Origin: Zancudomyces culisetae HAW-14-8
Lineage: Eukaryota > Fungi > Kickxellomycota
Assembly: GCA_052426225.1 (NCBI GenBank)
Contig: JBNJNM010000011.1
Span: 2,790,001 to 2,854,000 of the forward strand
Length of the DNA stretch: 64,000 nt
Direction of reading: 5' to 3'
Shown: one piece after another, positions 10,569-64,000 of the stretch
Position numbering within the stretch: the first letter of the stretch is position 1
Layout of the letters: the number at the start of each line of letters is the position of its first letter
The notes under the pieces: generated by a model
Told to the model about the DNA's origin: nothing
What the model saw: the letters and a program-made list of their open reading frames with translations, nothing else
Database searches by the model: none
Program-made: the position numbers and the translations under genes

Positions 10569-12545
10569 TTATTTACGGTAAAAGTATCTTTTAAACTTAA
10601 AGTATAGCTGTAAAACATTTTTATCAAAAGAATTCCGAAATCCCCTTTTTCTTGACATCTCCCACTCCTTATTGACAATTCTGAACGCAACATCTGAATA
10701 AGGAGCTCCAGCGATAAAACGAATTATTACTGTATTTCCCGAATCATCCAGTGGGTCCGGCTCAATCTTGTATGTAGGGGCTTTGGATTTGTCATTTAGT
10801 TCTGGGTAGAATATGTTAAACTTGTATCCTTGTATAACCTTTGGCGGTGGATTGTCAAAGTCATAGTGAGTTTGGTTGTATTTATTCCATTCATATCCTG
10901 TATGGACCTTGTTGAAGTATCTGGGCTTTTTCTTTAACGGATCCTCCTCTCTTCTCTGTTCTCGGTTGGTTATGCTACCACCATTCGCTTCTGTTAATGT
11001 GCCCGCTGCGCTGATGACCTCCGCTGACCTGTCCATATTTACCAGCTCATCACCTTCTTCAGCTTCCTCATCTTCACTTTCTCCATGACCCCTCTTTTGT
11101 CTCTTGTAGTTTTGCTCATTAATCTGCCTTAGGAACTCCTCCTCATATACCGAGTCCTCATTTGGCTACATCAGTTTTTGCATAATTATGTTAAATTAAC
11201 CACATGTGCTTATCTTATATAATCGTGTTATTTTTTTTTCCATCCACTTAATCTTACGCAATTCTGCCAAACAGATATTAACACAATAATCTCGCATCTT
11301 ATCCTGATGGCAACTGCAAATAATCATAAAAAATAAAACGGCTTTTATATCACTACTTACCTTTGAATTGCTTAGAACTTGGTGCTCATCCAAATAACTT
11401 TGTGGAATATTATTTTTACTCAAAATATAGTCTTTACAAAAACACTCATACACATGACTCACGCTTAATGCAGCCTTAAATACTTTTATCTGTTCTAGAA
11501 CTTGCTCCCAGTAATCACGATCGATAACCACAGATTTTTCGCCAATCTTCCGCAATACCATTTCTTGTAGCTCGTCTAGTTTTTCCGCGCTCTTCCCTTG
11601 CATCATATCTTTAATTTCGTTGTTTACCTTTATCCCACTTCTATTGTGCTTTTTGACACTATCAATGCGGTCTTGGCAGAGAATCCCTACCCCCTTCCAG
11701 TATTCCTTGTTACTTTGTGTTATCTCGGCTTTTCTATATTCTTTGATTTTCATTTTGATGCGTTCTAATTGTTCTACATCTGCAATTCCTGAAAAGGCCT
11801 TCCAGGGATCCAAATATATCGAAAGTTCGTCGGTTACATCCGCATTGCTATATCGACTCCTCTTTTCTCTTAGAATCCCCATCAACTCCAGCTCTAGCCC
11901 AAACCTACCCCCTTGTCCCAACTCAATCCTCTTTCTCCTCTCTGCTTCCGTCTCCTGGTAATAATGTAGATATACTATAAATAGATCTACAGGTCCATGT
12001 TCATCCCTACCAATTTTTTTGATGGCCTTAAGAACCAAATTGGTTAGATGCAGCTGTTGCTCCTTTTGCTCCCAATTCTGGCCCATCATGGCCTCCTCGT
12101 TTTCTCTTATCATGAGTATTTTCTGACGCTCCATATACTCTTGTTCTTTAAGCTTGGCTTCTTTAAGTTTTTGAAGTTTTTCTAATTCGTACTCCTGCTC
12201 TTCTCGTATTCTTTCATTCTCCTCCTCCGTATCTACTTCGTCCTCTCTACCCCTTTTACCCCTTTTCCTACCCTCTTTCCTATTCTTCTCAACTTTCTTT
12301 TTCCAAACAAATTTGTCAGAGACCTTTGAATTTGTCAATTGAAGAGCCGCATTGTCAATTGTTTTATACATCTGTGAAGAATTCCCCTTTTTATGTGTAA
12401 TTTGGTCACCTGAGCGTGATTTGTGGTGCTTTTTCGAAGATTCTCTACGGTTACGGCTATACCCCTCACTACCAGAGTCACTGGAATAGCTTCTATCGTA
12501 TTTCTCCCTCTTATTTCTTTCATTATGATTCTTTTCCTTTCCCAT
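10569..12545 (-). CDS. CACTIN: Cactin (spliceosome C*/P complex factor), about 593 aa
   Basis: Exons 12545-11361 and 11165-10569 (GTAAGT donor, TGTAG acceptor, phase 0); possible 6-nt microexon at 11263-11258. Motifs: FVWKKK, mid-domain DYWEQVL, CactinC domain KKPRYFNKVHTGYEWNKYNQTHYDFDNPPPKVIQGYKFNIFYP. Confidence 0.95.
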
Positions 12546-14376: not shown

Positions 14377-17351
14377 TCATTTTGAAAGGCTATGTAGATG
14401 TAATGACCAAGCAAAAAGTTTATATAACACCAAAAACATATTCTGAAAATCAACGCTTTCACTATCAAGTTCAGACTCATCAACAGTAAAAGTGTTCTCA
14501 TGAGAGAGATTGACGGAGTCGCTTTCTGTTGAAGTAGCATGGATGGCATTGTGACCAATTTCTGGGGCTGAACTCGACATCAGGGCTGTGTGAGAGCTTT
14601 GTTGTGACTCGATGGAGTCGGTATCTGATATCACCCGAGTTATTTCAGGAAATAGAGATAATATATTCAGCAATGCGTTGTATACACCTGGATTTGGCGG
14701 GATCACATTGAAATTGCTAGGAACAACAATTGCGTTTGAAAGAAAATCAGTAGTCGGTGGCGGGTTATGGGCATCATTGCTACAGAGATTGCTAGCACTG
14801 GCGAGCGCGTTGTTGTCACTACTTCTGCAACTATCAGTGTTTTCTGTAGCAGTTAAAGTGACAGCAGAGCTAAAGGCGTCTTTATCATGAAATGGAATAG
14901 GTGGTGGCGGCAGTGGCTCTGCTGCATTTTTTGGATTTAAGAGACCATATCTACCATGCGGACCAGTTATAAGACATGAAAACAAGCTTTTGTAGTAGTT
15001 CACTAAATAAGGACTAATTGTTTGGGCATCATCTATCCTGAGCTGATTTCGGGCAGCCGCTCTTGGCAAAGGCTGCGATGTTTCGGTGGGATTTTGAGTT
15101 ATAAAATCCAGTTGTTGGTTGGTTATATTCGTTTCTACTCTTCTCCACAGCCGCTTAGTAGAGCTGGAAAGGCCCTGTGAAATTGCGCCAATGCCACTGC
15201 TACTACTACCAGTGAGTAGTGTGTTTTTGATGGTGTCTGTGATAGTGTCTGTGTCAGTGTTGGCGTTGGCGTTGGCGTTAGCTTTGACTTCAGAATCCAT
15301 GCTGCTTAAGATTCCCCGACCAAAATCAGAGGCTTTGGCTATTTTAGGGATAGAAAAGGTGGTTGTGTCATCTACGTTGACACCATCATCGTTCAAGTTA
15401 AGATATGCTTGAGAGTTGTTGAGTTTATATAAAAACAAAGACTGGCCTCTCTGTTTCGAACTCGCCCTGCCTCTTTTGCTACCAGAGGCCTCGGCACCCT
15501 TGGGATTCACTGTGATCTGAACGCTTCCCTCGTCCTCATTGCTAATATCCTGAGGCGGGAGATGTGCCATCCCGCGCTTGTGTAGTATCTGCCAGTGTTT
15601 CCAGCATTGATTGTCACTTCGGTTTCCCATTAAATAGCTTACATAAGACCATTTTCCCACGCCAACGCGATTTACTATCTCTATTAATTTATGATCTTCC
15701 TCCCGAGTCCATTTGCTATGGTTAACATTTGGGGCTAAAACATTAACATATCGTTCGCGACACTTAACATCTGTTCGACCAGGAACATGTTGTGATATTT
15801 TAGTCCATTTCCCTACACCGTACAACTTTACGGCCTCCAACAGTAATGCATCTTCATCTTCTGTCCAACGCCCTGATTTTATCATTGGATGAAGCACTTT
15901 ATACCATCGATGCAACACCTGTTGGCTTGTTCGCCCCTCAATGCAACTTGAGATCGACTGCCACTGCCCCTCCCCATAGTAGCTTACTAGTTGCCTGACC
16001 ATCTCATCTTCATCTACATTCCAGTGCTTTTTTGTTAGTTTATTGTTTAACTTCCTTTGGTAATACTTGAAGCACTGTGCCGCCGTTCGATTAGTGTTTA
16101 ATTTTCTTGCGATATCCACCCAATCATACCCTCCGTTCTCTTCAACTATGCCTTTCAGCGCTGCTTCCTCTTCCTTACTCCACAATCCTTTATTTATCAT
16201 TGGATGCCCGTGTGTTGCCCATTGTATCGCACATGCCGTTGGCTTTTGTGTTAGCACGTACTTTCGCGATATTTCATCCCAACTGATTCCATCAATGTTG
16301 TATTCTAGCTCTTTGTTATACCGTTTACTTTGGAGTCTATTGATTTTTTCTATTTTCTGTTCCGTGGTTCCCTCACTATCGTTCATTATTTTTTCAATTA
16401 TTAACTCCTTATTCTGTTGCCTAACGCCATATGCTAGTTGTTTTTTCTCTCTTTCTGTCCACCTACATGCCCGGGTAATAATCAGCTTTCGCTGCTTTTT
16501 CCTTCTTTGTGTATCTAAATTTTCTGGAACGTCTTCATGATACATTTCTCTGAAATAACACTGGATCTTTCTCTTGTTGCCGTAACCTTTATTTCTATTT
16601 CCATTTTTTGTCTTCTCTTCGACATTCCCTATTCCTCGTATTGTGCTCTCCAGCTTACTGAGCCTTTTCAGAATATTCTCTATCTCTTTGGCCCCTTCCT
16701 TCTCCTCCGAAACTCCCATAATACTAGCCCACCTCTCTTTTTCCTCGGTTTTTTCTCTATATTTTCCTGAAACCAACTCCGTTATTGCTGCTTTAACTGC
16801 TATTGCGTTCTCAATGCCTCTGTTCACATTTCCTATGTTCTTCTCTATTTTTTTCATGACTTTGTAGTTGTTTCGGTAGGCCAATATGGCCTGGTATTTA
16901 ACCTCTTCGAATGTGGATCTATCGAGATCGAGTCATAGTAAAGTAAAGATATTTACATGTCTAATATTTGAGCAACATTTGTATTTAAACTGACTTACTC
17001 TGCCTTTATCTCTTCCTCTTCATCGCCATTCTCCATACTTTTTGTACATTTTTTATCATTACCCTCATCTTTACTTTGTTCGCTATTCATCAATAAAGTA
17101 AACTGCTCTTCTTTTAGTTTTTCTTCGGTTTTGATAGCAGCAATTAACCTCTTCTCGTATTCTGCCCCGACCTCAATGTTCGACTCTATTCCAAGTCTAA
17201 ATATCTCCTCTTCGTATTTGGTTATTTCCTTCTCCAGATTTTCAACAATTTGGTTTTGATCAACTTGACTAGAATTTGCTTGGGCGCTGTCATTATGAAA
17301 TTGTACTTCACTAATGGATCCTTGCCCGTCTATGTGTACATCTCTTGCCAT
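14377..17351 (-). CDS. SNAPC4: snRNA-activating protein complex subunit 4 (SNAP190-like, multiple Myb repeats), about 964 aa
   Basis: Exons 17351-16999 and 16918-14377 (80-nt GT-AG intron joins the two ORFs in frame). YF..P.N.DT motif, half repeat ISWDEIS..., then HPMINKGLWSKEEE..L..DW..IA..L..NRTAAQCF and three more Myb repeats: the SNAPC4 architecture. Confidence 0.85.
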
Positions 17352-17810
17352 TCTCTCGATTGTTTTTCATTATACTCTTTAGCTCTCCCACTTTTACGAC
17401 TTTTTTTTCGACACGAGTAATGTATGCACGTTTACAGAATTGAAAATAGATTTAATTTTACGCTTTTCCATAAAATTTTCACTTGAAAAAAAAAAGTTTG
17501 AATGATCATTTTTTTATAACCTAATTATTGTCCTTCATCAAAAACAAAGAAGGAAAGCAAGCTTTGCCATTTAAAGATGAATACAACCCCTACTATTTCA
17601 TGATATACTTTATTTGTACTTAAGTGTAGAATAAAATATACCAAACTAAAAATATATAAGGTTTGATAACCGAGTAAACGTCAAAGAGTACATAGAAATG
17701 CTAAGTAGCCGCATTCATTGTTAGAACGGAAAGTTTATTTAACTCAAGAAATCCTCCGTTGTAGATGAAACTGGTGCTGGTCTTGGCTTTGGAAAAGAAA
17801 ACCCCGCCGA

Positions 17811-18134
17811 TTAGACTAGCTTGTTTTTTTTGGGTTGGTTCAGACTTGTACCTATGCCTCCAGGCCCAGCACTTGGGTTCTCCTTGGCGGCACTCATATT
17901 GTTGTTGTATATAATTTTGCTGCTTTCTAGGCCTTGGAAATGGTTGTACTTCTTGGACTTATTGGTTCTCATTTTATCTTCATGGCACGTGTCAGAATCA
18001 CAGGATTCATCCTCTTTATCTCTACCGGCATGAGCACCAGCACCTGAGATATATCCAGTACTACCAGGTATTCTTATTCCGCCAGCCTTTCTTGCAGGAC
18101 TACGCCCTCCCTTTAATTCACATGGTGAACTCAT
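17811..18134 (-). CDS. Death-associated protein 1 (DAP1/DAPL1)-like small disordered protein, 107 aa
   Basis: N-terminus MSSPCELKGGRSPARKAGGIRI resembles animal DAP1 MSSP...AGHPPAVKAGGMRI. Acidic RDKEDE patch; near-terminal LNQPKK resembles IQQPRK; length about 100 aa. Confidence 0.7.
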   Translation of the reverse strand: MSSPCELKGGRSPARKAGGIRIPGSTGYISGAGAHAGRDKEDESCDSDTCHEDKMRTNKSKKYNHFQGLESSKIIYNNNMSAAKENPSAGPGGIGTSLNQPKKNKLV

Positions 18135-19984
18135 TGTCGCTAATTACTTTTTTGAGTACTTTGTTTTTTCTTTGCTAGGTTCGCAGTTTTAATCTTAGTC
18201 ACAAGTATAATGCCAGGTTTATATCCTTTGAGTTAAGGTAAATATGCATACATATATATACGTATTCTGAGGGAATACAAAATATTCTACAATATTTGAA
18301 CTGGTTAGCTGACTTAATTGAAAGGAAAATCGCTTTAGAGCTCCAGTCCCATTTATGTTTCCAGAATTATCCAGCTTAGCAGAATCTGGATAGTTTGGTT
18401 ATAAAGAGTAGAATCTAATACGCTCTCGCTCGCAATCTCTGGGATATGAGTGTCGTCAGGTGATCAAACAAAAACCGTTTCCAATCAAAATACCCGCCAT
18501 TCTGGACTGAATGCCACGTGCACTTGCAGATTCCAAACACCACCATTTGTGATGATTTCCCGCAGCTTTTGAATTGACGCTAAAAATTAGGATATACTTT
18601 TTTATTGGAATATACGGGTGCATGACACACATTTCTGCTCAAAAACTCAAAATGAGGACAAACAATGCAAAAATAAGCAGCCAATTATCATATACACTGT
18701 TTCCGCAGGCGATAGGCTCAAGGAAGGAGCTGTTGAGGAGAAACAGCTCAACAATGAGATGTAAAAATAGCCACCACCATATTTATTGCCGAGCATTTAT
18801 TAAAGAAAAAGTTTACGGACAAATAGTGGTGGGATGTATAAGCAGCTTCTTCGGCTTAGGAAAGTATCAAAAAAAATGAAGGAAAGTGGCGATATGTATT
18901 ATTGAAGGTACATCAGAACGAGTTGAAGTTCAATGGCTATTACTTGTCAAAAAGATGAACAATCCCAAAAGCGCTTTACAGCTATCAAAATAAAAAATAA
19001 AAAATACAAGTATCACCCATGTGTATCTTTTCTCACCCCGCACCCCTAAATTCTTCTCTCTCGACTCCTCCCTAAAAAGGGTTAATATGGAAAATACTTG
19101 GAAAATTGTGGCTCTTACTAGCCTGATTACACATTTCTGTGATTGTATGTAGAATGGGGGGGGTTAGGCAGGAATTAAAGTGTCAGCTCATTTGCGTTGT
19201 TTTTATTCCTTAATTGCTTTTACGCACTATCAACGTGTTCATTTGGGCAGGTATTTCATTGTCACTTTTTCTCATCATTTAAAGATAAAATATGCTGTGT
19301 AGCTATGGTATTTGTTGGGAGCTATGGTTCTGTTTATAGGTTTGTACCCGAGTATCTTTACTTCTTTTTTATGATTTTTATTTACTTTCAATTTTCCCTT
19401 TGAAACTTACTAACTCTATTCTTCAAAATGCTAACTAACCTAATGATAATGTATTCTCATCTTCTTGGGATCGCCCTAATGCTAGTAATCCCCAAAATAA
19501 CACAATAATAATAACAATAACAATAATAATAATAATTAAAATAATCTTCACCCCCCTCTTCCATCCTTCCCGTCTTCTGCCTTCTATATGTGTAAAACTT
19601 ACATACGAATCGTTTGTATAAAAACCACAGTAGACTATTTCGGCACAACCGAACATAAAACTAGGGGTATTTTCTGAATGTGTATAATCTCACATTCACA
19701 GTATTCACTATTGACTACTAAAAAAAGATAAACTCACCAAGTTCTTTGGCTGGGAAATTGTATGCACATTTAGCGAATAATTTAATGCTGCCATATAAAC
19801 ATTTAAAGTGCACTAATATACATATTGCATTTGAACATCATCGCTAATAATGGTTCTAATGTTTAGATGAGTTCTAGTGATGAATGTCCGCTATATTATC
19901 TTTATTCCCATCACCTCTCCTACAAAACATACTCTAGATAAGTATAAAAAAACAACTAAATGAAATGAAGATTGATAAAACTCA

Positions 19985-22388
19985 TTATTTGCCAATAGAT
20001 GCGTAAAGTCCATCAATTTTGCTTTTGTAGTATTTCATCGCATCAAATCTCTTTAGCTTTAGCGTTGGTGTGAGAAGGGCATTTGTCTCGACATCAAATG
20101 GAGTGGGTTCCAAATGAACTGCTTTCAAAGTCTCATAACCTAGCAACTTGTTGTCTCTGAAATGACTTTCCATGCTACTAACAAACTCTTCGTTGACTAT
20201 ACTGTTCTTAGTCAGTTCGACGTAAGTCATATTTGAGATGGTTTCATTACCCAGCACTTTTCGTTTTTTTAATTTATCTCGCGCCCATTCAACAAAAGTT
20301 TCGGGATCGGGAACAATAATGCCAACCAGGCAGTCCTTGGATGGATATCCTGTAACAAATGACTGAAGCACAAGCGGGTGTTTTTGAAGAATGTTCTCAA
20401 GCTTTTCAGGGGCAACGTACTCGCCCTGAGCAAGCTTGAATATGTTTTTTTTTCTGTTTATAATTTTTATGTTTCCGTCGGGGCAGAATTCACCAACGTC
20501 ACCACTTGCCAGCCAACCGTCACCTACTAGAGTCTCCTCTGTATTTTTTTTGTCTTTTAAATAGCCAGCAAAGATGTTAGGACCACGGATCAGAATTTCA
20601 CCCCGGGGGTTTGGCTTATCCGTTACATAGAATTCCATTTCAGGAATATCACGCAGCCTTATCTCGACGCCAAGGAAGGGCCTGCCGATGTTTCCGTGTG
20701 TAAGAGATCCTTGTTGCTGTGAACACGCTATTCCGGAAGTTTCAGTCATTCCATATCCCTCCCCAAATTCACAAAGCATAGTAACTTTAATGAAGTTTTT
20801 AACTTGAGGGTCTAGCGGTGCGGTCCCACATCCAATGCTTTCCAATCTGTTTGATATGATTGCTCGTGTTTTCTCAAAAATCAGAGGATCCCAAACAGGG
20901 TGACGGTTGCCCTTTCTAGCCATGAGATTGTCCAGTTTCTCTTTAACCGCTCTTCTGCATATTTCACCCATTTCCCCTGGGGCATTGACGGTTCTTGCTG
21001 ATATTATGTCGTAGAACCTATTTACCAGCCTCGGAACTGCAGAAAAGGATGTTGGTTGTAGCGCTTGGCAGTCTTCAAATATTTTGGTTATGTCGCCACA
21101 AGAATATCCAACGATCCCACCCGTGACAGCAACCGAGTTTTCTGAAAACCTTCCGTATGCGTGTGCAAGTGGAAGATAGGATAAGAGAACTCTAATAGAT
21201 GTAGGATCAGGTATTGCCGTAGTGGTAGCAGTAAATGTGTAGTTGGCATGGGTTCCAATGGCACTCTTGGGGTCACCCGTGGTCCCACTTGTATAGCACA
21301 GTGTGTAGACATCTTCTGGCTTTGGAGGGAAATGTGGAATTGGGTTTTCTCTACCAAGCTCCTTAACCTGGTCAAAATCATACAGTCCGATATTCTTAGA
21401 TCTGGCCCATCTTTGTAAGATCTCGATGCTATTTGGGGTGAATGAACTTAAAACCCTGTGATCCCCGGTAGAAAGTGTGCTTTTAAAGTTTGCAAAACTA
21501 TCCATAGCTATAATAACTTTGACAGTAGGGATCTTATCTACTATTTCCAGTAACAAAGGAACCTTATCCAACCCACATACCACTATAGGTATTTCAGCAT
21601 GTTTTATGATATACTCTGTGGATGAATGTCCTAATGTATCATACAGTGCAACAGAGTACAGCGAATGTGTTACACCAGCTTTCTCTACGATTGTCCATTC
21701 TGGTCTATTTGCGGCATATATACCGAGCGGAAAATTTCTTTTGGTCAGCATGTCTTGCTCCTTTTTGTTGTTTGGATCAAAGTGCTTTTTCAGCAGATGA
21801 ATCACTCCAGAACCGAACTCTTCTACGCTCTTTCCAACCTCTTTATATCTCTGATAAACGAATGGCAGGTACTTTCCTGTCAGTCTATCGTATGGCCTAT
21901 GTCCCAAGTAGTTACGTTCTGGATATGTTTTAACGGCTATTTATTTACAATTTCAGATAAAATTAGACTTAAAAGGTCCTGGAGTGTTATATTTTGTGAA
22001 TAAACAAGTATTGGTATGCTAATGAAACCTTACCATCCCAAAAGATGTCATACACTGTTTTCAGGTGAGGGTATTGTCTTGTGTATTTACCATCAACATC
22101 CTCAAGATTTTTGCGAATTGCTATTGTGATGAGTGCATTATTGTTGATGCTGTTTTATTCAGATACTCATTAATATTAATATCCCTTATACGAAAATCTA
22201 ATCAAATATGTCTTACTAAAATGGTAAAGTAGACACTCCTAAAAGTAAAGTAAACAAAAGAAAAACAACTAAGTGTGTTGGGAAATGGAAAAATGCGACG
22301 ACCTACGTGAAAGCCCTGGCTCTGCTGAGTTAGGAACATCATATGATACAGGTGATGGTTCCAAGTTTGTGTATTCAATGTCTTTCAT
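19985..22388 (-). CDS. Long-chain fatty acyl-CoA synthetase (ACSL/LACS family)
   Basis: Exons 22388-22307, 22120-22034, 21936-19985 in frame. Motifs: CYTSGTTGDPK, SYLPLAH, EGYGMTET, RGEILIRG, KNIFKLAQGEYVAPEKLEN, LLTPTLKLKR. Confidence 0.95.
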
Positions 22389-31867: not shown

Positions 31868-33148
31868 ATGAAAATAGACTTAAATTTCGAATTAACACCG
31901 ATTCAGTTATTGGAAGGTAATTTGATAGCATTACAATGTTAACTATGAATTTGGAGGATTATTCAAGGCGTGTTTTTTTAGTATTAAGGAAATAAATGAC
32001 ATAATTTTATTTATTTACATTGTGTCGGCTTAAAATATCTCAATAATAATAATACTAAAGGTCACGGAGGAATGGTATGGCAAGCCAATTGGAATAGTGA
32101 GGGAACAAAAATAGTAAGCTGTTCGGGGGATAAGACCATAAGAGTATGGGAGTGCAAGAAAGTAGGGGAGAGCATGGAATGTAAAAATACACATGTGGTA
32201 AAGAATTCGCATAGCAGATCGATAAGATCGGCGGTATTTGAAGAGAACAATAAACAGGGAAATGAAAGAATAGCAGCAGCAAGCTTTGATGGAACTATTT
32301 CGATCCATCAATACAGTGAATTAAGCGATAGCTACAAATGTGTTTGCACGCTAGAGGGGCACGAAAACGAGGTGAAAAGTGTGAGCTGGTGCAAGGACAA
32401 AATAGCGAGCTGCGGAAGAGACAAAAGTGTTTGGATATGGCAGAATATATTAGATAATGACGAAGACGATGAGTTCGAGTGTATAGGTGTGTATATAGAA
32501 CACGAGCAGGATGTAAAAAGCGTCAAATGGAATAAAAAATACAATATTTTGGCATCAGCGTCTTATGATGACAGCATAAGGATATGGAGAGGAGCAAATC
32601 AACCAAACAACGGCGAGTACTACGAGGAGGAGGAAGAGGAAGAAGATGAGTGGTATTGTAGTCAAGTGCTTAATGGGCATGAATCTACAGTTTGGGATAT
32701 AGATTTCGATGGAAGTGGTAAATATATGGTTAGTTGTAGCGACGACTTGACAATTAGGATCTGGGAGTACAGCAATGGGGCAAATGGGGAGTTTCCAGGG
32801 GCAGAATGGAAATGGAACTGTGTGTATAAGGGTGGGAAAGAGGTGCATAAGCGTGCGATATACTCGGTATCATGGAGCAAGAACAATATTAACGAAAATG
32901 AAACAAATGGAGACATGGGATATATAGCAACATGTGGGGGAGACAATACAATTCGTATATTCAAAGTAACAAGCAACCTATCACAGGAGAATAAGAGAGA
33001 GATAAAAGTAGACTTAGTTATTGAAAAGAAAAATGCACACGGCCATTATGATCTCAACAGTATAAGTTGGAATCCGAAGGATAATGGATACTTGACAACA
33101 GCGGGAGATGACAAACTTGTAAAAGTATGGAAATTTACAACCTGTTGA
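31868..33148 (+). CDS. CIA1: Cytosolic Fe-S assembly WD40 protein Cia1/CIAO1
   Basis: Exons 31868-31916 and 32061-33148 (LEG/HGGMVW). Motifs: LEGHENEVKSVSW, SCGRDKSVWIW, EHEQDVK, LASASYDD, GHESTVW, SCSDDLTIRIW. Confidence 0.95.
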
Positions 33149-35803
33149 AGAAGTAGACATAGGCGAGGCTTGCGGCTTCGACAGGATCTGGGTGTTCAAC
33201 TACGCGGTCATCATTAAACATTATCCAGCGACTAGCAGAGCTACTGGGCGAGACATCCACATGCGAGACGTAGTGACCAGAGTGCAGTGAAGATCCTTTG
33301 TGCGAGATGAACGATTTGAGCCTGTATAGAGCAGGACTCAAGTCAGGCGTGGAAGGCAGTTGTGTAGAGGCTTCCTCAACTGCAGGGGATGATGGATAGT
33401 CTTCGATTTGATCGGGATTATTGAATAGATACTCGACCGCAGCAGCCATATCGCCACTGGATTTTTTCAGTGCTCTGTTCGCCTGTTGTGTGGTGAATCC
33501 CATCTCACATAACTGGTCGACTTGAGATTGGTCAAAGCTGGAGATCTCCGTCGTCTTTTTTTGTATCCTGGGCGCAGCTGGGGGTGTGTCGGAAGAAGTA
33601 ACCAGCTCAATATTGGAAATAAGATACTCAAGAGCCGCCTCAACATTTCCTTCATTGAGCTGGAGGGCATATTTACACCAAGGTTCTGGAAACCCTTGCA
33701 CTATCAACATATTTAGATCACCTTCGTTGACAGCCACCTCGACCTCAACCTCACCTTCATCGTCGCCATCAGGCATTAACTCTTCATTGTTACTTTTTCC
33801 TTCGACCTCCCATGGAGCTCTCAGCTCGTCGAGACTAGTCTCATCGGTCAGAGATACACTCATTGGATCATTGATTTTTTGGGGGACCCAGTCGACAAGC
33901 TCAAATCTTCTAACCTGTATAGCTAGCACCTTTGGGAACGTTACAAAGCGCATAGTTTTCTTCACTTTTCTTTTGGTTTTGCAATAGCTACATGCATAGT
34001 TGTCAATTAGCTCATCCTCACAAAGTGTTTTTATACAGTCAAAGATTGAAGCTGGCTGCTGACCCTCTTTATTCGCTAAAATAGGCACCGTAAGCGATGA
34101 TGTGCTGTATTTATTGTACCGGACTCTCAGACATTCTTGACACTGAATCTTTTCCTCAACCATAAACTCGTATATTTGACAGCTTTCCTTGTTTATACGT
34201 CCTATGCTGTCAACCATAAATTGGAAAAACTCAAAAGAATCTTGCTGTCGGGCATTTCCAAATACCACACTGTCTCTGCACAAAACATCCTTAAACATTC
34301 TTGGTGCAATCCCATATTTTGACCTCTGCTCCTCCGACCCGGCGTTTTCGTACCTTCCACACCATATTCCCTCTGCGAGTTTGTGTGTTTGGCATTCAAG
34401 ACACTTTGCCGTTCCGCTGGCGCTTCTACACTTGCCAAAATGGTCTGATGCAGTTTTGTAAAATTCAGCCTTGAATGCATCGCTAGTAAACACACACTGC
34501 ACAGCTGCAGATAGATAGCACGAGTTTCCCATATTCCTTAACCCTGTTGTCCCCTCCCCTTTGACTACCGCTTTCAGCATGGTTCCATCGTCTGACGTCA
34601 TTCCAAAATCCATTTTAAGGTTCTGTTCCAGCTGCAACTCCATCATTCCCTTTTCTGTCTTGCTTTGCTCCTTAACTTCAATCCCGAATGTTTTAAGATG
34701 TCCTTCCAGGTTATCATCTACTCGATTTTCATCGCACTTGTAACAATAAACATCCGCTGCCCCTGTTGTCGGCTCTATTGTTCCTAGCTTCACACTGCTT
34801 TCGTGTCCTGTGCTCGCATAATGCTCTGACGCATGATTGTTACCCCCGCTCCCATCATACTGCCGCCGCCCACACCCTACATGGCCACATACTAAACACA
34901 TCCATAGATTCTCTTCCTTGTCACATTTTCCACACTTTTTAGTTTCTATTTATGAACACAATTATTAATTTTTTGTTAAATACTCTCTTTCAAAACGACA
35001 CCTCGCCTCTTGTTATAGATCCTAAACCACATTCTTGTTACCTTTAATGTCGAATCCTTCATCGGAAATCCTTTGTTCTATGTTGTTTGTATGTGCACAA
35101 CTTATCACCTCCTCTCTCCACGCCTGTACTTCGCTCTTTTCCTTTGAGCTCATTGCGTCAATTATCCCCTTAATTGTGTCTCTAACCTATTTTTGAATTT
35201 ATATCCTTTTCTTACAAATTTTCCTCAAAATATACATTTTCTTGTTTGTCTCGATTTGCACACGGAATTGTGTGTTATTCATCTTACATTTTCAGGGACT
35301 GCTGTCTCATAGTTGTGGATTTCCCCACACTCTGCGCAATTGAGCTTGTAATATTTTTCGTATTTTTTCTCATTATTTCTTTCCTCTTCACATTCGTCGA
35401 TTTCGATTCTACTAATCTTCTTTGGTCTTTCATCCTTTTCCTGATCTTCAACGACGGATTTTCGAACCTTATGTACCTTCAAACTCAAGAAATGCCCTGT
35501 GTTGAATGCATGTAAATACCCGTGCTCACGTTCGCTACCCACACACCCACCATTAAAACATGTCAGACACACGCCTATTCCCTGGTTCATATCCTATGTA
35601 TCCGATATTGACTTTTTTTAAATATTCTTCCCCTCTTCTTTTTCGCCTTTTACACATCCTTGTAAAAAAAAACAAATGATAATGAAGTTACGTTACTTTA
35701 CCTCTGTATCGAAACACATGGTACATTCATCTTTGTATATGAATGTGTCTTTTCTGGCGGGCTTTATAGCCGGATTATTCAAATGTACACAAGAAACATT
35801 CAT
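33135..35803 (-). CDS. UBP14: Ubiquitin C-terminal hydrolase 14 / isopeptidase T (USP5/13 family)
   Basis: Exons 35803-35702, 35593-35288, 35186-35042, 34945-33135 in frame. Domains: YKDECTMCFD N-terminal ZnF, ZnF-UBP (NLWMCLVCGHVGCGR), Cys box GLRNMGNSCY, two UBA domains, His box ISHKGSSLHSGHYV. Confidence 0.95.
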
Positions 35804-37695: not shown

Positions 37696-38499
37696 CTAAT
37701 TACACCAAGGCAATTCAGTACTTTTTGATGCTGCTGTAGCACTTTTTTTGGCACTAGCACTTTTTTTGGCGCTAGTACCCTTTGCTGTGGACCGCTTCTG
37801 AGGACCACCAGCTGCTGGGTTGGCGCCTGTTGAAGATCCAGTAACGGTTATCTTGGGTCTCTTGTTAAATAGATCAATACCTGTGTTGTAATTTCCCATA
37901 AACTCTCCAACTCTTGGTGTTCCTGGACCATAGTTAGCTACAAGCATTTTGGATCCTGTAAAGCTCTTTGATGTACCTTCAATTTCTACATCCGCACAGT
38001 TCATGTAAAACTCACGGTTTCCACTTGCATTTATCCAGGACCATGCAAAAACGGCACTTTTACTTGATGGTAGACCTGCAGGTAACTTAAAGCTATATGA
38101 AGTCACTTGAGCAACGTTACTACCCTTATTTCCCTTCATGAAACAGTATCTCAAGACATCATTAACTACAACAAAGTTTTTCCCACCGTCATAAGAAAGC
38201 GCAAACTGACAATGTCCACCACTATGAGCGGCACCGCTAGGGTCAAATTTAACAGTAACAGTACTTCCTGCCTTCCATTTTGCTACATTTTTAGAGCTCT
38301 TTTTGCTTGTTTTACATAGGGGTTGCCCTATCTTGTCTGATGTTCCTATAGGTGCCTTTATGCTGTAGTCAACTGGATCGCCTGCTGGGCATTTAGGATT
38401 GTTTGGAGATAAACGTGGACAGGGCTCTATCATAGCCATGTGTGCAGTTGCGCTAGATGCCAAAAGCGAAACCAATGCGATTTTCAAAATGCTAGCCAT
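37696..38499 (-). CDS. Secreted AA11-family (chitin-active) lytic polysaccharide monooxygenase, 267 aa
   Basis: Signal peptide ends SATA/H, exposing an N-terminal His. Second His in AAHSGGHCQFALSYD; FAWSWINASGNREFYMNCADV; low-complexity basic tail. Confidence 0.85.
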   Translation of the reverse strand: MASILKIALVSLLASSATAHMAMIEPCPRLSPNNPKCPAGDPVDYSIKAPIGTSDKIGQPLCKTSKKSSKNVAKWKAGSTVTVKFDPSGAAHSGGHCQFALSYDGGKNFVVVNDVLRYCFMKGNKGSNVAQVTSYSFKLPAGLPSSKSAVFAWSWINASGNREFYMNCADVEIEGTSKSFTGSKMLVANYGPGTPRVGEFMGNYNTGIDLFNKRPKITVTGSSTGANPAAGGPQKRSTAKGTSAKKSASAKKSATAASKSTELPWCN

Positions 38500-43451: not shown

Positions 43452-44606
43452 TCAAAAGTAAATCTGTGCAACCAATGGGAGTATTGCAAAGATAACATAC
43501 TTTAATAAGTGAGTTCTGTTTATTTCTTTGGCACTAGCTGCACTGTCTGTAACAGTAGGTACTGATAGCACATTGCTGTCGGTCCCAATAGCTGCAAATG
43601 ATTGGGCCGTTTGATCACCTGCAACTGTGGATATGGGACGAAGAGTGAGAGTGCTGGTCAACATATCATTTAGATCTCGTGTCTCCACATCTATCAAATT
43701 GGCTACAACCTTTACAGTAGTATTGACATCAGCCTTTGCTTTGGCGCTGTTTTGACTGTGCTGGCTTGTATGCGCTTCACTGCTTTCATGGGTCTGGTTT
43801 GCCTTCTGGCTTATCTTGCTTTGATCACTTTCGCTGCTCTGTTGGCTTTTATCACTCTTGCTACTTTTTTGTGCTTGAGAAACTTGTTGAGTTTTTTGGG
43901 TACTTGTGCTGGCCTTGGATGATTTATGATCAGCTTCGCTTGCGGTTTTGTGCAAAACTACAGTTTTAAGAGTAGAAACTTTGTTTTTACACCCATTAGC
44001 ATAACAAACTGTTCCTCTGACTGTACAGATACAGAGAGTGCACCCATCGCTCTTGTAAAAGAATTTTTCTCCATGAACTTTCACACATTTGCTATATTTT
44101 TCAAGTGCCTGTGTGCTTGTCACACTTTCAATTGAGGCCTTTTCCTGTCTGTCTGCTTGTTTTGAAGCTTTTATTGTGCCACAAACCATTCCATCTATAG
44201 TGCAATAACACATGGACAAGTTGTTAGTGCTGTTAAAGACGCCATATCCGTTGGTTAACGCACATGCGTTGTATTTTATCCATGACTCAAGTGAGATATC
44301 ACCAAAACTTTTGTTTTTGTTTTCCTTTGACTCAGATGGCTTGCATGATCCCTTCTTGGGGCAATATACTCCGGTTCTACCACAGTAGCATTTTGTACAT
44401 CCATCGCTGTCCAAAAATATACCATACCCGCGCTTTGCGACACAAGAATTGAATAGTGCTCCCTCATCTAGATCAACAATCTTTACAGCTGGCAACCTTA
44501 TGTTACCTAAAGGTGCAAGCCCTACTTCGCGTTTATTCACATCGGCTGCGCTGGTGACGGTAATGGCCAATTTTACTAAAATGGCGTACTTTGCAATAGA
44601 GAACAT
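43452..44606 (-). CDS. Secreted, probably GPI-anchored protein with three pacifastin/VWC-like Cys modules and an S/Q/T-rich stalk, 384 aa
   Basis: N-terminal signal peptide plus KR. Modules C55-C88, C115-C142, C174-C206 (C-x14-C-x2-C-x-C-x3-G-x2-C-x4/5-C). C-terminal small-residue site (DSAASA) followed by a hydrophobic tail. Confidence 0.8.
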   Translation of the reverse strand: MFSIAKYAILVKLAITVTSAADVNKREVGLAPLGNIRLPAVKIVDLDEGALFNSCVAKRGYGIFLDSDGCTKCYCGRTGVYCPKKGSCKPSESKENKNKSFGDISLESWIKYNACALTNGYGVFNSTNNLSMCYCTIDGMVCGTIKASKQADRQEKASIESVTSTQALEKYSKCVKVHGEKFFYKSDGCTLCICTVRGTVCYANGCKNKVSTLKTVVLHKTASEADHKSSKASTSTQKTQQVSQAQKSSKSDKSQQSSESDQSKISQKANQTHESSEAHTSQHSQNSAKAKADVNTTVKVVANLIDVETRDLNDMLTSTLTLRPISTVAGDQTAQSFAAIGTDSNVLSVPTVTDSAASAKEINRTHLLKYVIFAILPLVAQIYF

Positions 44607-61320: not shown

Positions 61321-64000
61321 CTACATCGCATAAGCTGCCCCAGTAGTTGTTGATATGTTTTCTGTACCTGTTGTACCCAGTGTACCGGAACCACTGACGC
61401 CACCACCTGTGCTACCACCTGTTGGGGGTGTTATGCTTGGGTACAAAGATAATATCGGCATCGACCCTGTGTTTGTATTCTTATTCATGCTTGTATTCGT
61501 ATTCGTATTAAAGCTTGAGATTCCACTGCCTCCTGTTGATTTCGGTTTTATCTTGAGCAAAAAAATCACAGCATTAGGTCTACCAGTGCCGGTACCAGTA
61601 TTAGTGGTACTTGGTCTTGAGCCTGTTAGAGTTATTGTATCCATCCCATTGGCATTTATTGCTGGTGTAAGTGGGTTTGTAGTTTGCATGTTCATTCCCT
61701 CTGTTCCCAAAACCGGTCCTAGTCCTGATATTATCGATGCTATTCCACTACTTGAGCCACCATTTATTGCATTATTTGTTTCTGTTGCCATCTCTGTTCC
61801 TGATCCTGTTCCTGATCTCATTGTTGCACGTGGTTGTGTTAGTGATCCAAATGTCGATGAAGAAATACCGTCTAATGGTTCTCTCATATTCTGCCCAAAA
61901 GTACCGCTATTAGTAACAAGCTGTGATGAGGGTGATTGCTGTTGCAGCTGTTGCCCACTCAGACTAGGCGAGAGTAAACCTGAATTATTTGTAGTACCTG
62001 TAGTGCTTGTATTGATTGGTGTGCTTGGTGTGCTTGGTGTCGTTGAAGATCCAGGCGATATACCCAATTGCGTTAGTAGCGACAAAAGCAATGGGTTGGA
62101 TTGTAACGACTCTGGTGTTGGTGTTGACACCAATAGTTCCGACGGCAGTGATTGCTGGTTAGTGCTAGAGGCAGCACTTGAGCTAATACCCTGAGTGCTT
62201 CCTGGGGTTGCACCACTCTTGACAATTGAATCAGACACCAATTCTGCTAGACGGTGTAGGTTCACGTTTGTTTGTGGAGAAAGGTTGTTGTTATTGGGAT
62301 TTACTGGAACAAGGTTCCCATTCTGAGTAAATACACCTTGAAAATTTGGAGACCCTGGAGGTGGGGCATTAGGGTAGTTGCTAAATAACGATGAAGCAAC
62401 CTGGCCCAGTAGTTGACGCTTTTGAAGGGCTTCTGACTCAGAGCCTGTCTCCGCACTTTTGTATCCGTAGATCGGTATGACAATCTTCGGGTCATTTACG
62501 CCATAATATTTGTTCGGATCGCTATTTGGGGGAGCAAAGTATGTTCTTGATTCATTGAGTATCTCCTCGTTATTCAAGCTTATAATTACGGTCAGGTTCG
62601 ATAGTGGCCCAGTTACGTCGTTTGTTTCCGTATCACTGGTAATCAATACAGGAACTTGGTATTGCTCAGCAAGATAGTTATTACTGTTGGCACTTCCGGG
62701 ATCAATATACACAACTTCAGTTCCAGTGAGGCTGGGTGTATTCGCTGAGCTATTGCTTGAATCAGAAGGCTGTATATACAGATTAAGTCTAAGCTTGTAG
62801 TTAAATGAGGCGGGTACTATACTTAGCATGTTTGCGGCTTGAAGCTGTTCGATCTCTATTGCTGCGTTTTGCTTTCTCAAGTAATCGATTTGTTGCTGTG
62901 GTAACGCGTATTCTCGTTCGTTCCTGTAAATTATAATACCTTCTTTCTTAGTAACTACAGTAATATTCAATGTACTTGTGCCTTGAGTCACTTGGTTCAC
63001 TGTAGATGTGTAAGGTTTAGCCACTTGAGCTACATTTGTTCCTTTTGGTACAATATCTGTAGAGTTTAGAGTATCAGTAACCTGTGTAATTTCAGTACTC
63101 ATCTGTTGTTTAGCATTTTGTATGTTCTGAATTCCAGTCATAAATTGGTTAAACTCGTTTGGGTTTAAGCTGACATAAGTATGGTTATTTGGTGTGGCAA
63201 CTACCTGTGTATTAGGCTCGTTTGTAGTTGTGGTAGTATTATTTCTACCCCCATTAACCAATATCACTGTCGCGTTCTGTATTGGTGTCTCTTGTGAAGG
63301 AGATGTACTACTGGTATCAATGGATAACACATTCGGAATGTAGCCCTGGGATGATACAGTTGTTGCATTTGGAATTTGATATTCAGGCTCAGTGGTCACT
63401 TGGGTTGGTGTAGCTATAGTAGAATTGGTGTTAGGTACAGTTGTATTGAACACTATTTTTACACCTTTTTCAGATACAGTATTGGTACTTGGCATTTCTG
63501 TGTTTTTTTGATATGCATACTGGGAGGTTGAGTAAACAAAGGTCTGTTGTGAATCTTGGGTAGGATACTCGGCATTAACTTGCGTAGAGGTTATTGTGCT
63601 TTCAGCAGCATAGTTCTCTTCTGGACGCGCGGGGTATATTGCAGTACCATAAAATACTTGAGAGTCACTGTTGTTGTTAGAAAGAGGAGAGATACTGTTG
63701 TTCATATCCGGCTGTGTAGTGAGTGTTTCACCAATAGCATCCTGAATTGCTTGGTTTATCTCACCTTGATCTAGCACAGCCACTGTCTTATTTTTTCCGT
63801 CAACCACATATATATTGTTACTCTTCGATTCGTTCTGGCTTTGTGAAACTGGTACAAGTGTAGTAGTGTATTGTGATGCGGATTTCACACTTGAGTAAGG
63901 TTCGGATGGGTTCTTTGGAGCTTCTGGAACAACCGTAACCTTGAGGTTAACTTGGCATGTTTCACTGGATGCATTTGGGATGGGAATACTAGTTCCTACA
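61321..64000 (-). CDS. 5'-truncated Ser/Thr/Asn/Gln-rich low-complexity protein, probably secreted or cell-wall associated (>890 aa)
   Basis: The frame stays open from the window end (VGTSIPIPNASSETCQVNLKV...) to the stop at 61321. Mucin-like composition; internal Kex2-like LQKR/Q site; no recognised domain. Confidence 0.75.
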   Translation of the reverse strand, partial: VGTSIPIPNASSETCQVNLKVTVVPEAPKNPSEPYSSVKSASQYTTTLVPVSQSQNESKSNNIYVVDGKNKTVAVLDQGEINQAIQDAIGETLTTQPDMNNSISPLSNNNSDSQVFYGTAIYPARPEENYAAESTITSTQVNAEYPTQDSQQTFVYSTSQYAYQKNTEMPSTNTVSEKGVKIVFNTTVPNTNSTIATPTQVTTEPEYQIPNATTVSSQGYIPNVLSIDTSSTSPSQETPIQNATVILVNGGRNNTTTTTNEPNTQVVATPNNHTYVSLNPNEFNQFMTGIQNIQNAKQQMSTEITQVTDTLNSTDIVPKGTNVAQVAKPYTSTVNQVTQGTSTLNITVVTKKEGIIIYRNEREYALPQQQIDYLRKQNAAIEIEQLQAANMLSIVPASFNYKLRLNLYIQPSDSSNSSANTPSLTGTEVVYIDPGSANSNNYLAEQYQVPVLITSDTETNDVTGPLSNLTVIISLNNEEILNESRTYFAPPNSDPNKYYGVNDPKIVIPIYGYKSAETGSESEALQKRQLLGQVASSLFSNYPNAPPPGSPNFQGVFTQNGNLVPVNPNNNNLSPQTNVNLHRLAELVSDSIVKSGATPGSTQGISSSAASSTNQQSLPSELLVSTPTPESLQSNPLLLSLLTQLGISPGSSTTPSTPSTPINTSTTGTTNNSGLLSPSLSGQQLQQQSPSSQLVTNSGTFGQNMREPLDGISSSTFGSLTQPRATMRSGTGSGTEMATETNNAINGGSSSGIASIISGLGPVLGTEGMNMQTTNPLTPAINANGMDTITLTGSRPSTTNTGTGTGRPNAVIFLLKIKPKSTGGSGISSFNTNTNTSMNKNTNTGSMPILSLYPSITPPTGGSTGGGVSGSGTLGTTGTENISTTTGAAYAM

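What the first reader, a model, noticed from the sequence alone, without database searches (positions are those of the whole stretch)
17811..18134. Fungal homologue of the animal ribosome-dormancy factor DAP1/Dapl1
Seen: a 107-aa intronless ORF whose two ends match the conserved ends of the DAP family (MSSP...GRSPARKAGGIRI vs MSSP...GHPPAVKAGGMRI; LNQPKK vs IQQPRK), with a DAP-like acidic patch and length. Established: vertebrate Dap/Dap1b/Dapl1 insert their C-terminus into the ribosomal exit tunnel of dormant egg ribosomes, and DAP1 is an mTOR-regulated autophagy brake phosphorylated at the N-terminal SP site. Budding yeast has no recognised DAP. Inference: this fungus may silence ribosomes in resting spores with a DAP-type plug, inherited from the opisthokont ancestor or acquired from an animal host. 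Four extra residues (NKLV) after the QPxK motif could change tunnel binding.
Basis: partly seen in the sequence, partly recalled or inferred. Interest (0 to 1): 0.78.

Follow-up and report, generated by a model that had tools for sequence, protein, structure and literature searches.

The report
Fungal copy of animal ribosome plug
A fungal genome encodes a small, predicted-unstructured protein whose two ends match, at the family's spacing, the animal Dap proteins that plug resting egg ribosomes, so it is likely a divergent Dap that would help silence ribosomes in this fungus, a role not yet tested.

Summary
The 107-aa ORF (17811-18134, minus strand) is real: host-like codon use, its own intergenic slot, and the exact sequence is already in NCBI/UniRef. 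It is very likely a divergent Dap/DAP1 (PF15228) protein. DAP is its only Pfam hit (E=0.0075, below the curated cut-off), Xenopus Dapl1 its only PDB hit, and the top three Atlas hits are DAP. An animal-type profile scores it above 5000 of 5000 shuffles. The C-terminal LNQPKK, with the eIF5A-binding Gln, sits 84 residues from the N-motif Lys (animal-type median 84; 46 of 200,000 shuffles). Against: the central family motif is eroded, three N-motif letters differ from all 141 animal-type sequences, proline is low, and 7 residues follow the Gln (2-4 in 118 of 119). No fungal orthologue or RNA run was found, but the single-sequence searches were too weak to see even true DAPs. The tree cannot tell inheritance from animal-to-fungus transfer (AU p 0.41 and 0.18). 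A second divergent, long-tailed Dap-like group of unknown origin turned up in metagenomes. Tunnel plugging and any spore role are inferred only. I found no paper on fungal Dap.

The parts
17811..18134 (-). Dap-like gene, single ORF, 107 aa (P0001), predicted disordered
   Evidence: exact sequence in NCBI/UniRef/nr as a one-member cluster; AlphaFold2 pTM 0.13, mean pLDDT 56; Atlas model pLDDT 0.27
18123..18128 (-). Ser3-Pro4, positional match to the DAP1 Ser3 mTORC1 site
   Evidence: sequence; SP at positions 3-4 in 48 of 142 animal-type DAPs; Ser3/Ser51 named in PMC7161711 (passages)
18069..18119 (-). N-terminal Dap motif, residues 6-22. In fish and frog this region crosslinks to Rpl31 at the tunnel exit
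   Evidence: 13 of 17 positions carry the commonest or second-commonest animal-type letter; S12, R15 and I20 occur in 0 of 141 and R11 in 3 of 141. Crosslink: bioRxiv 10.1101/2021.11.03.467131
17976..18020 (-). Acidic linker, residues 39-53; no Ser-Pro here, so no counterpart of the DAP1 Ser51 site
   Evidence: sequence; 123 of 142 animal-type DAPs have an SP in residues 39-68
17904..17954 (-). Eroded central region, residues 61-77; Phe67 may be the remnant of the family's D-F-P motif
   Evidence: motif present in 135 of 142 animal-type DAPs; its Phe lies 29-31 residues before the key Gln (5-95%), against 33 here; alignment A1
17826..17843 (-). C-terminal Dap motif LNQPKK, residues 98-103, with Gln100 at the invariant hypusine-binding position
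   Evidence: Gln and Pro invariant in 141 of 141; spacing 84 from Lys16, animal-type median 84, 5-95% 81-88, n=141; role of the Gln: bioRxiv 10.1101/2021.11.03.467131
17814..17825 (-). C-terminal extension NKLV (7 residues after Gln100 in all); the codons run through an 8-base A tract at 17824-17831
   Evidence: 2-4 residues follow the Gln in 118 of 119 database DAPs
18218..18223 (-). TATA-like hexamer 84 nt upstream of the ATG (consensus match only)
   Evidence: common by chance in 33% GC DNA
17609..17739 (-). Two AATAAA hexamers downstream of the stop (17734-17739 and 17609-17614), possible polyadenylation signals
   Evidence: consensus match only

Best explanation
This gene encodes a 107-residue, predicted-disordered protein with both end motifs of the Dap family at the family spacing; it is likely a divergent, natively inherited Dap that would act as a ribosome-dormancy plug in this fungus. 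By analogy with fish Dap1b and frog Dapl1, the N-terminal motif would dock near eL31 at the tunnel exit, the C-terminal part would thread up the exit tunnel, and Gln100 would take the place of the last residue of a nascent chain and bond the hypusine of eIF5A, holding empty 80S ribosomes idle in starved or resting cells. Release would likely follow TOR-type phosphorylation at Ser3-Pro4. Shown here: the ORF, its coding character, both motifs, their spacing and the invariant Gln-Pro. Inferred only: expression, ribosome binding, the dormancy role, the phosphorylation switch and vertical origin. My odds: Dap homologue about 0.9; acts at the exit tunnel about 0.55; vertical rather than transferred about 0.7.
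For: DAP is the only Pfam family at E<=10. Xenopus Dapl1 from an egg ribosome (7oyc) is the only PDB hit at E<=10 (E=0.26). The top three Atlas hits are DAP clusters (0.90-0.91, 193-198 of 256 features), with 12 hits carrying that family set. Shuffle tests: 0 of 5000 and 46 of 200,000. Motif spacing equals the animal-type median. The Gln whose mutation abolishes ribosome binding in zebrafish is kept. GC3 0.38 and codon use match the neighbours. A second, very divergent Dap-like group of unknown taxon exists in metagenome contigs (L007, L117, P0126, P0130; Pfam DAP E 2e-4 to 9e-4, also under the cut-off). An Atlas cluster that is mostly Basidiomycota scores 0.82, a lead only. Both fit a family older than animals.
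Against: The Pfam score is under the curated cut-off, and only the N-half scores. Three N-motif letters are absent from 141 animal-type sequences (that set is biased to canonical arthropod-like proteins). The central motif is eroded. Proline is 5.6%, against a mean of 12.3% and a minimum of 7.5% in 142. Seven residues follow the Gln, against 4 in both solved structures, and may not fit the peptidyl-transferase centre. Even true family members differ: zebrafish Dap did not repress translation in rabbit lysate and fly Dap did not bind rabbit ribosomes. No fungal orthologue was retrieved. The ends resemble animal DAPs more than the other divergent group (best phmmer 22.7 against 6.4 bits), which fits transfer as well as retention. 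Fungi already have a tunnel-capping, eIF5A-contacting factor, SNOR.
Confidence: 0.5

Rival explanations
1. The gene is a Dap taken from an animal, such as an arthropod host, and since ameliorated to fungal codon use; it would be used on the fungus's own ribosomes.
For: The ELKGG element before the N-motif and the QPKK end are animal-type: E 84, L 110, K 117, G 55 and G 122 of 141. The other divergent group differs at four of these five positions and has QPGG. All named sequences among the top 120 of 1208 profile hits are animals. A tree that holds it with hexapods is not rejected (AU p=0.41). An insect-to-gut-fungus transfer has been reported for polyubiquitin (PMC5026252, passages).
Against: Its end branch is 8.4 changes per column and it does not fall among insects in the free tree. 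Grouping with the divergent group is not rejected either (p=0.18). Highest identity to any row is 29%. Lack of introns says little, since many neighbouring genes read as long single ORFs. That this fungus lives in insects is my impression from recall and was shown by no call. No sequence named as Diptera was in my set.
Confidence: 0.2
2. It is a true Dap descendant that has lost or changed the plug function. It would bind the ribosome surface weakly through the N-motif, or act in TOR and autophagy control as human DAP1 is described to, without blocking the tunnel.
For: Eroded centre, low proline, three unusual N-motif letters and a long tail. Zebrafish Dap and fly Dap bind rabbit ribosomes poorly or not at all. 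Ser3-Pro4 is kept.
Against: The Gln-Pro and its spacing are kept while the centre has drifted beyond recognition, which points to selection on the tunnel-inserting end. Changing Dap or Dap1b tail length by one residue did not alter binding.
Confidence: 0.22
3. It is an unrelated small disordered protein, or an unexpressed ORF, whose ends resemble Dap by chance.
For: Sub-threshold Pfam and PDB scores. The N-motif pattern alone occurs by chance often in large collections: 97 of 122 pattern loci were not DAPs. Shuffled proteins reach an Atlas score of 0.9 in 4-10 of 100 cases.
Against: Two motifs, in order, at the right distance and at the right ends of an ORF of family length: 0 of 5000 and 46 of 200,000 shuffles. 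Coding-type codon use.
Confidence: 0.08

Closest known systems
Zebrafish Dap1b / Xenopus Dapl1 (PDB 7oya, 7oyd, 7oyc; Leesch et al., bioRxiv 10.1101/2021.11.03.467131)
   Same: About 110 aa, disordered; N-motif near the start and x-Q-P-basic motif at the end, with the hypusine-binding Gln position kept; Dapl1 is the only PDB hit.
   Different: Likely fungal host; 7 rather than 4 residues after the Gln; N-motif has Arg and Ile where vertebrates have Val and Met/Lys; central motif eroded; half the proline; no binding or inhibition data.
Invertebrate Dap1 and human DAP1 (Pfam PF15228)
   Same: MSSP start with Ser3-Pro4, ELKGG element and motif spacing as in arthropod and mollusc DAPs.
   Different: 17.6 bits against a cut-off of 27; no central Ser-Pro matching the Ser51 site; 19-32% identity to the 24 other rows of A1.
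Fungal exit-tunnel and dormancy factors: SNOR/Rtc3 (PMC13345908) and microsporidian MDF2 (PMC11102965)
   Same: SNOR inserts a C-terminal tail in the tunnel and contacts eIF5A in dormant fission yeast. MDF2 is listed as a hibernation factor of microsporidian spores.
   Different: No Pfam or PDB match to either was reported for P0001 at E<=10. SNOR has a folded SBDS domain; this protein has none predicted.
Unnamed divergent Dap-like group (L007, L117, P0125-P0128, P0130)
   Same: Both motifs, sub-threshold Pfam DAP hit, no animal-type centre, long tail after the Gln.
   Different: QPGG with a 12-residue tail; no ELKGG element; at most 6.4 bits against P0001; taxon unknown.

Membership tests
Dap/DAP1/Dapl1 (PF15228) | Pfam DAP score at or above the gathering cut-off (27 bits) | tested here: not met
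   17.6 bits, E=0.0075, residues 8-52; the only family at E<=10
Dap/DAP1/Dapl1 (PF15228) | N-terminal motif P-A-V-K-A-G-G-M/K-R (as given by Leesch et al.) | tested here: met
   7 of 9 positions match; Arg for Val and Ile for Met/Lys; 0 of 5000 shuffles reach the profile score
Dap/DAP1/Dapl1 (PF15228) | C-terminal motif I-Q/H-Q-P-R-K/R-x with the invariant Gln | tested here: met
   LNQPKK; Gln-Pro invariant; L in 2, N in 33 and K in 28 of 141 animal-type sequences; 46 of 200,000 shuffles
Dap/DAP1/Dapl1 (PF15228) | Length about 100-115 aa and conserved distance between the motifs | tested here: met
   107 aa; spacing 84 against a median of 84 (range 75-95, n=141)
Dap/DAP1/Dapl1 (PF15228) | Chain ends 2-4 residues after the Gln | tested here: not met
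   7 residues; 118 of 119 database DAPs have 2-4; depends on an 8-base homopolymer not checked against reads
Dap/DAP1/Dapl1 (PF15228) | Central D-F-P...H motif of animal-type DAPs (derived here from alignment A1, not a published criterion) | tested here: not met
   present in 135 of 142; only a possible Phe67 remnant here
Dap/DAP1/Dapl1 (PF15228) | Unstructured, basic and proline-rich | tested here: inconclusive
   no fold predicted; Lys+Arg 15.9% against a mean of 15.2%; Pro 5.6% against 12.3%
Dap1b/Dapl1-type exit-tunnel dormancy factor | Binds 80S in the exit tunnel with eIF5A and represses translation | not testable with these tools
   needs ribosome pelleting, in vitro translation or cryo-EM
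Dap1b/Dapl1-type exit-tunnel dormancy factor | Expressed in dormant cells | tested here: inconclusive
   no RNA holder was listed, which is no evidence either way
DAP1 as mTORC1 substrate | Ser3 and Ser51 phosphosites | tested here: inconclusive
   Ser3-Pro4 present; no central Ser-Pro; phosphorylation untested

The most novel reading that the evidence does not exclude
An early-diverging fungus took the animal egg-ribosome plug Dap from an animal host, kept only its two working ends, lengthened the tail that reaches the peptidyl-transferase centre, and uses it to park ribosomes in its spores. That would be a transfer of a translation regulator from animal to fungus. The milder novel reading, which I hold more likely, is that Dap is a hidden, pre-animal family of ribosome hibernation factors whose non-animal members fall below the Pfam cut-off.
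Probability: 0.15. Interest if true: 0.82.

Novelty: new variant of a known kind. Interest (0 to 1): 0.52.

Why it matters
Dap1b/Dapl1 is described as conserved across animals and as the first native protein found plugging mature eukaryotic 80S ribosomes (Leesch et al.). [quoted passage not shown] A fungal Dap that keeps only the two end motifs and their distance marks what the plug likely needs. It makes two questions testable in a microbe: whether Dap-type dormancy predates eggs and animals, and whether a longer tail can pass the peptidyl-transferase centre. It would also add a candidate beside SNOR, Stm1 and Lso2 for spore dormancy. The weight is limited by the lack of orthologues, expression and function, and by the chance that domain databases already list some fungal DAP proteins (my recollection; not checked).

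Tried and rejected
Relatives of P0001 alone: the word-index search gave only itself among 2 candidates. The exhaustive phmmer of 1.84 billion representatives gave itself and one repeat protein, P0002, rejected as a low-complexity match. These blanks are uninformative, because true DAPs score at most 22.7 bits against P0001. The 25-row profile found 1208 hits, but only the best 120 are shown and all the named ones are animals, so fungal members may lie among the 1088 not shown. A profile of P0001 with the two divergent proteins found only P0126 and P0130 besides itself, among 42 candidates. No DAP relative was confirmed in viral contigs (63 pattern stretches) or prokaryote genomes (87 stretches). 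No RNA holder was listed, so no reads could be laid and the homopolymer in the tail is unchecked. No whole genome is held, so copy number, eIF5A, SNOR and Stm1 could not be looked up. The Atlas search of unnamed clusters gave no usable hit, and its structure matches are meaningless at pLDDT 0.27. Hidden intron: of 267 possible GT-AG excisions the best rose from 20.6 to 27.0 bits, but the top 12 all have non-consensus donors and gain by deleting unmatched middle sequence; the other reading frames score 0.3 bits or less; rejected. Frameshift-prone assembly: the split cactin and Myb ORFs are explained by ordinary GTAAGT...TAG introns; my first guess at the cactin intron was out of frame. Tree of 36 rows: P0001 has a branch of 8.4 and odd composition, and neither constraint is rejected. 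The control '0 of 97 chance motif loci have a C-motif' is partly circular, since the 25 DAP loci were picked by that motif; I rely on the shuffle tests. Literature: of 10 paper searches, 9 were aimed at Dap and 1 at gut fungi; none listed a paper on a fungal Dap of this family. Yeast 'Dap1' is damage response protein 1, a heme-binding protein with the same name. Supplement term searches in 5 papers found no DAP-family row. Earlier findings of this scan: nothing relevant. No complex prediction was run: the partner is the ribosome.

Full report
Observation. It sits alone between a long-chain acyl-CoA synthetase gene (ends at 19985) and a Myb-repeat gene (first exon starts at 17351), all on the same strand. 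Its codon log-odds (0.286) lies within the range of 17 neighbouring long ORFs (0.11-0.38, which trained the model) and above all 60 intergenic ORFs of 50 aa or more; GC3 is 0.38 against 0.32-0.49. The exact protein is in NCBI, UniRef and nr as a one-member cluster, so annotators already called the gene; the tool hides its name. The genome uses GTAAGT...TAG introns, but there is no consensus donor in this ORF.

Host. The window is a gene-dense eukaryote with few introns. An AA11-type lytic polysaccharide monooxygenase (E 4.5e-11 to a chain named AA11) and a Prp43 that scores higher with chains named Prp43 (1027-1046 bits) than with DHX15 (984-986) point to a fungus. That the Prp43 chains are fungal and AA11 is a fungal family is recalled. 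eIF4A scores higher with eIF4A-I chains (587 bits) than with the yeast chain (539), which does not contradict an early-diverging fungus but does not show one. My impression that it is an insect-gut fungus of the Harpellales type comes from recall and from no call.

Family. Three libraries name the same family without being told. Pfam gives DAP (PF15228) as the only hit at E<=10, at 17.6 bits and E=0.0075, below the cut-off of 27. The PDB gives only Xenopus Dapl1 (E=0.26). The Atlas gives DAP clusters as its top three rows at 0.90-0.91. To get a reference set I scanned metagenome contigs for the N-motif (120 loci returned of about 150 estimated) and viral contigs (2 loci). Of these 122 loci, 26 were flagged for a Gln-containing end, one (L060) was dropped as a chance flag, and 25 were Dap-like ORFs; L058 was left out of alignments as identical to L032. 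Of the 25, 23 are animal-type (3 tested, all above the Pfam cut-off) and 2 are divergent (both below it). A profile of 22 animal-type proteins scores P0001 at 19.2 bits, and 0 of 5000 shuffles reach that; the first half gives 19.6 bits and the second half 0.5. The second motif is therefore judged by position. In 141 animal-type sequences the distance from the motif Lys to the invariant Gln is 75-95, median 84; here it is 84. A motif of that form lands in that range in 46 of 200,000 shuffles of residues 23-107. The reference set (120 database hits plus 22 loci) is partly redundant and biased to arthropods.

Departures. Of 17 N-motif positions, three letters (Ser12, Arg15, Ile20) occur in 0 of 141 and Arg11 in 3 of 141. 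The central D-F-P...H motif, found in 135 of 142, is reduced to a possible Phe67. Proline is 5.6% against a mean of 12.3%. There is no central Ser-Pro, so only one of the two mTORC1 sites named for DAP1 (Ser3, Ser51; PMC7161711, passages) has a counterpart. Seven residues follow Gln100. In 119 database DAPs with a Gln-Pro, 118 have 2-4 and one has 12; both solved proteins have 4 (chain lengths, Gln numbers). Longer tails do occur: 6 in L069 and 12 in the divergent group. The tail codons cross an 8-base A tract. Tracts of 8-9 occur 4 times in 26.8 kb of neighbouring ORFs, so the tract is not suspect in itself, but no reads were available.

Mechanism. From the Leesch preprint (abstract, Discussion in full, and passages of the Results): Dap1b/Dapl1 inserts its C-terminus into the exit tunnel; the invariant Gln takes the position of the last residue of a nascent chain and bonds the hypusine of eIF5A; mutating it abolishes binding; the N-motif crosslinks to Rpl31; changing tail length by one residue has no significant effect; zebrafish Dap does not repress rabbit lysate and fly Dap does not bind rabbit ribosomes. 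P0001 keeps the two elements that touch the ribosome and the chain length between them, and no fold is predicted (pTM 0.13). I therefore infer a tunnel plug that holds eIF5A on idle ribosomes in starved or resting cells. Every functional step is inferred. The main rival is a Dap that no longer plugs. The extra three residues would have to be accommodated near the A site, which I could not model.

Origin. In a 36-row tree P0001 has an end branch of 8.4 and no supported neighbour. Holding it with hexapods (p=0.41) or with the divergent group (p=0.18) is not rejected. The tree used 23 named hits, 9 animal-type loci and 3 divergent proteins chosen by me; none was named as Diptera. For transfer: its ends are animal-type, and an insect-to-fungus transfer of polyubiquitin is on record (PMC5026252, passages). 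For inheritance: extreme divergence, host-like codons, a second divergent group of unknown taxon, and a mostly Basidiomycota cluster of 72 proteins at Atlas score 0.82, under the tool's bar of 0.9. No fungal orthologue was retrieved, but the single-sequence searches could not have seen even true DAPs, and 1088 of 1208 profile hits were not displayed. No relative was confirmed in viral contigs or prokaryote genomes.

What is known. The preprint calls Dap proteins conserved across animals and has 0 occurrences of 'fungi' in its main text; its extended alignment is a figure I could not see, and bioRxiv supplements are closed, so non-animal rows there cannot be excluded. The 2024 hibernation review (passages) and the two SNOR papers (passages) mention Dap1b only for fish and frog eggs. 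Nine paper searches aimed at Dap listed nothing on a fungal member, including zero papers for the Pfam, InterPro and PANTHER numbers, the last two recalled. Of PMC5954228, PMC12611240, PMC6792448, PMC10079182 and PMC6040629 I saw only the search listing, where there was one, and term searches of the supplements, with no DAP-family row; of PMC10386755, passages. The library lacks most subscription papers. I recall that domain databases list some non-animal DAP entries; I could not check this.

Verdict. It fails three family features that I tested (Pfam cut-off, central motif, tail length), so I file it as a divergent Dap-like variant and not as a standard member. It likely works like Dap1b, at about even odds. 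The spore role and the origin are open. Interest 0.52.

Noticed in passing
L007:147-509 (+), L117:15-377 (-), P0125-P0128, P0130: A divergent Dap-like group from metagenome contigs and Logan assemblies, taxon unknown: both motifs, Pfam DAP under the cut-off, a conserved 12-residue tail after the Gln that contains a Cys, and no animal-type centre.
   Followed up: partly
Atlas row 13 for P0001: A 72-member, 127-aa 'hypothetical protein' cluster, mostly Basidiomycota, scores 0.82. It did not appear in the search of unnamed clusters, which may mean a few members carry some Pfam family. It is a lead for fungal Dap-like proteins; no sequences were available.
   Followed up: no
window 14377-17351 (-): The 118-aa ORF at 16995-17351 is likely exon 1 of the Myb-repeat gene: an 80-nt GTAAGT...TAG intron (16998-16919) joins them into one frame of 964 aa.
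   Followed up: partly
window 10569-12545 (-): Cactin appears as two ORFs; a 195-nt GTAAGT...TAG intron (11360-11166) restores one frame.
   Followed up: yes
window 35279-35590 (-): A 103-aa ORF with UBP zinc-finger hits, likely an upstream exon of the USP5-like deubiquitinase gene at 33135-34901.
   Followed up: partly
window 37696-38499 (-): A 267-aa protein with a hydrophobic start and similarity to AA11 lytic polysaccharide monooxygenases.
   Followed up: partly
window 43452-44606 (-) and 61321-63705 (-): Two ORFs without a clear family: 384 aa with a Cys-rich, VWC-like stretch (E=0.0077), and 794 aa with no Pfam hit at E<=1.
   Followed up: no
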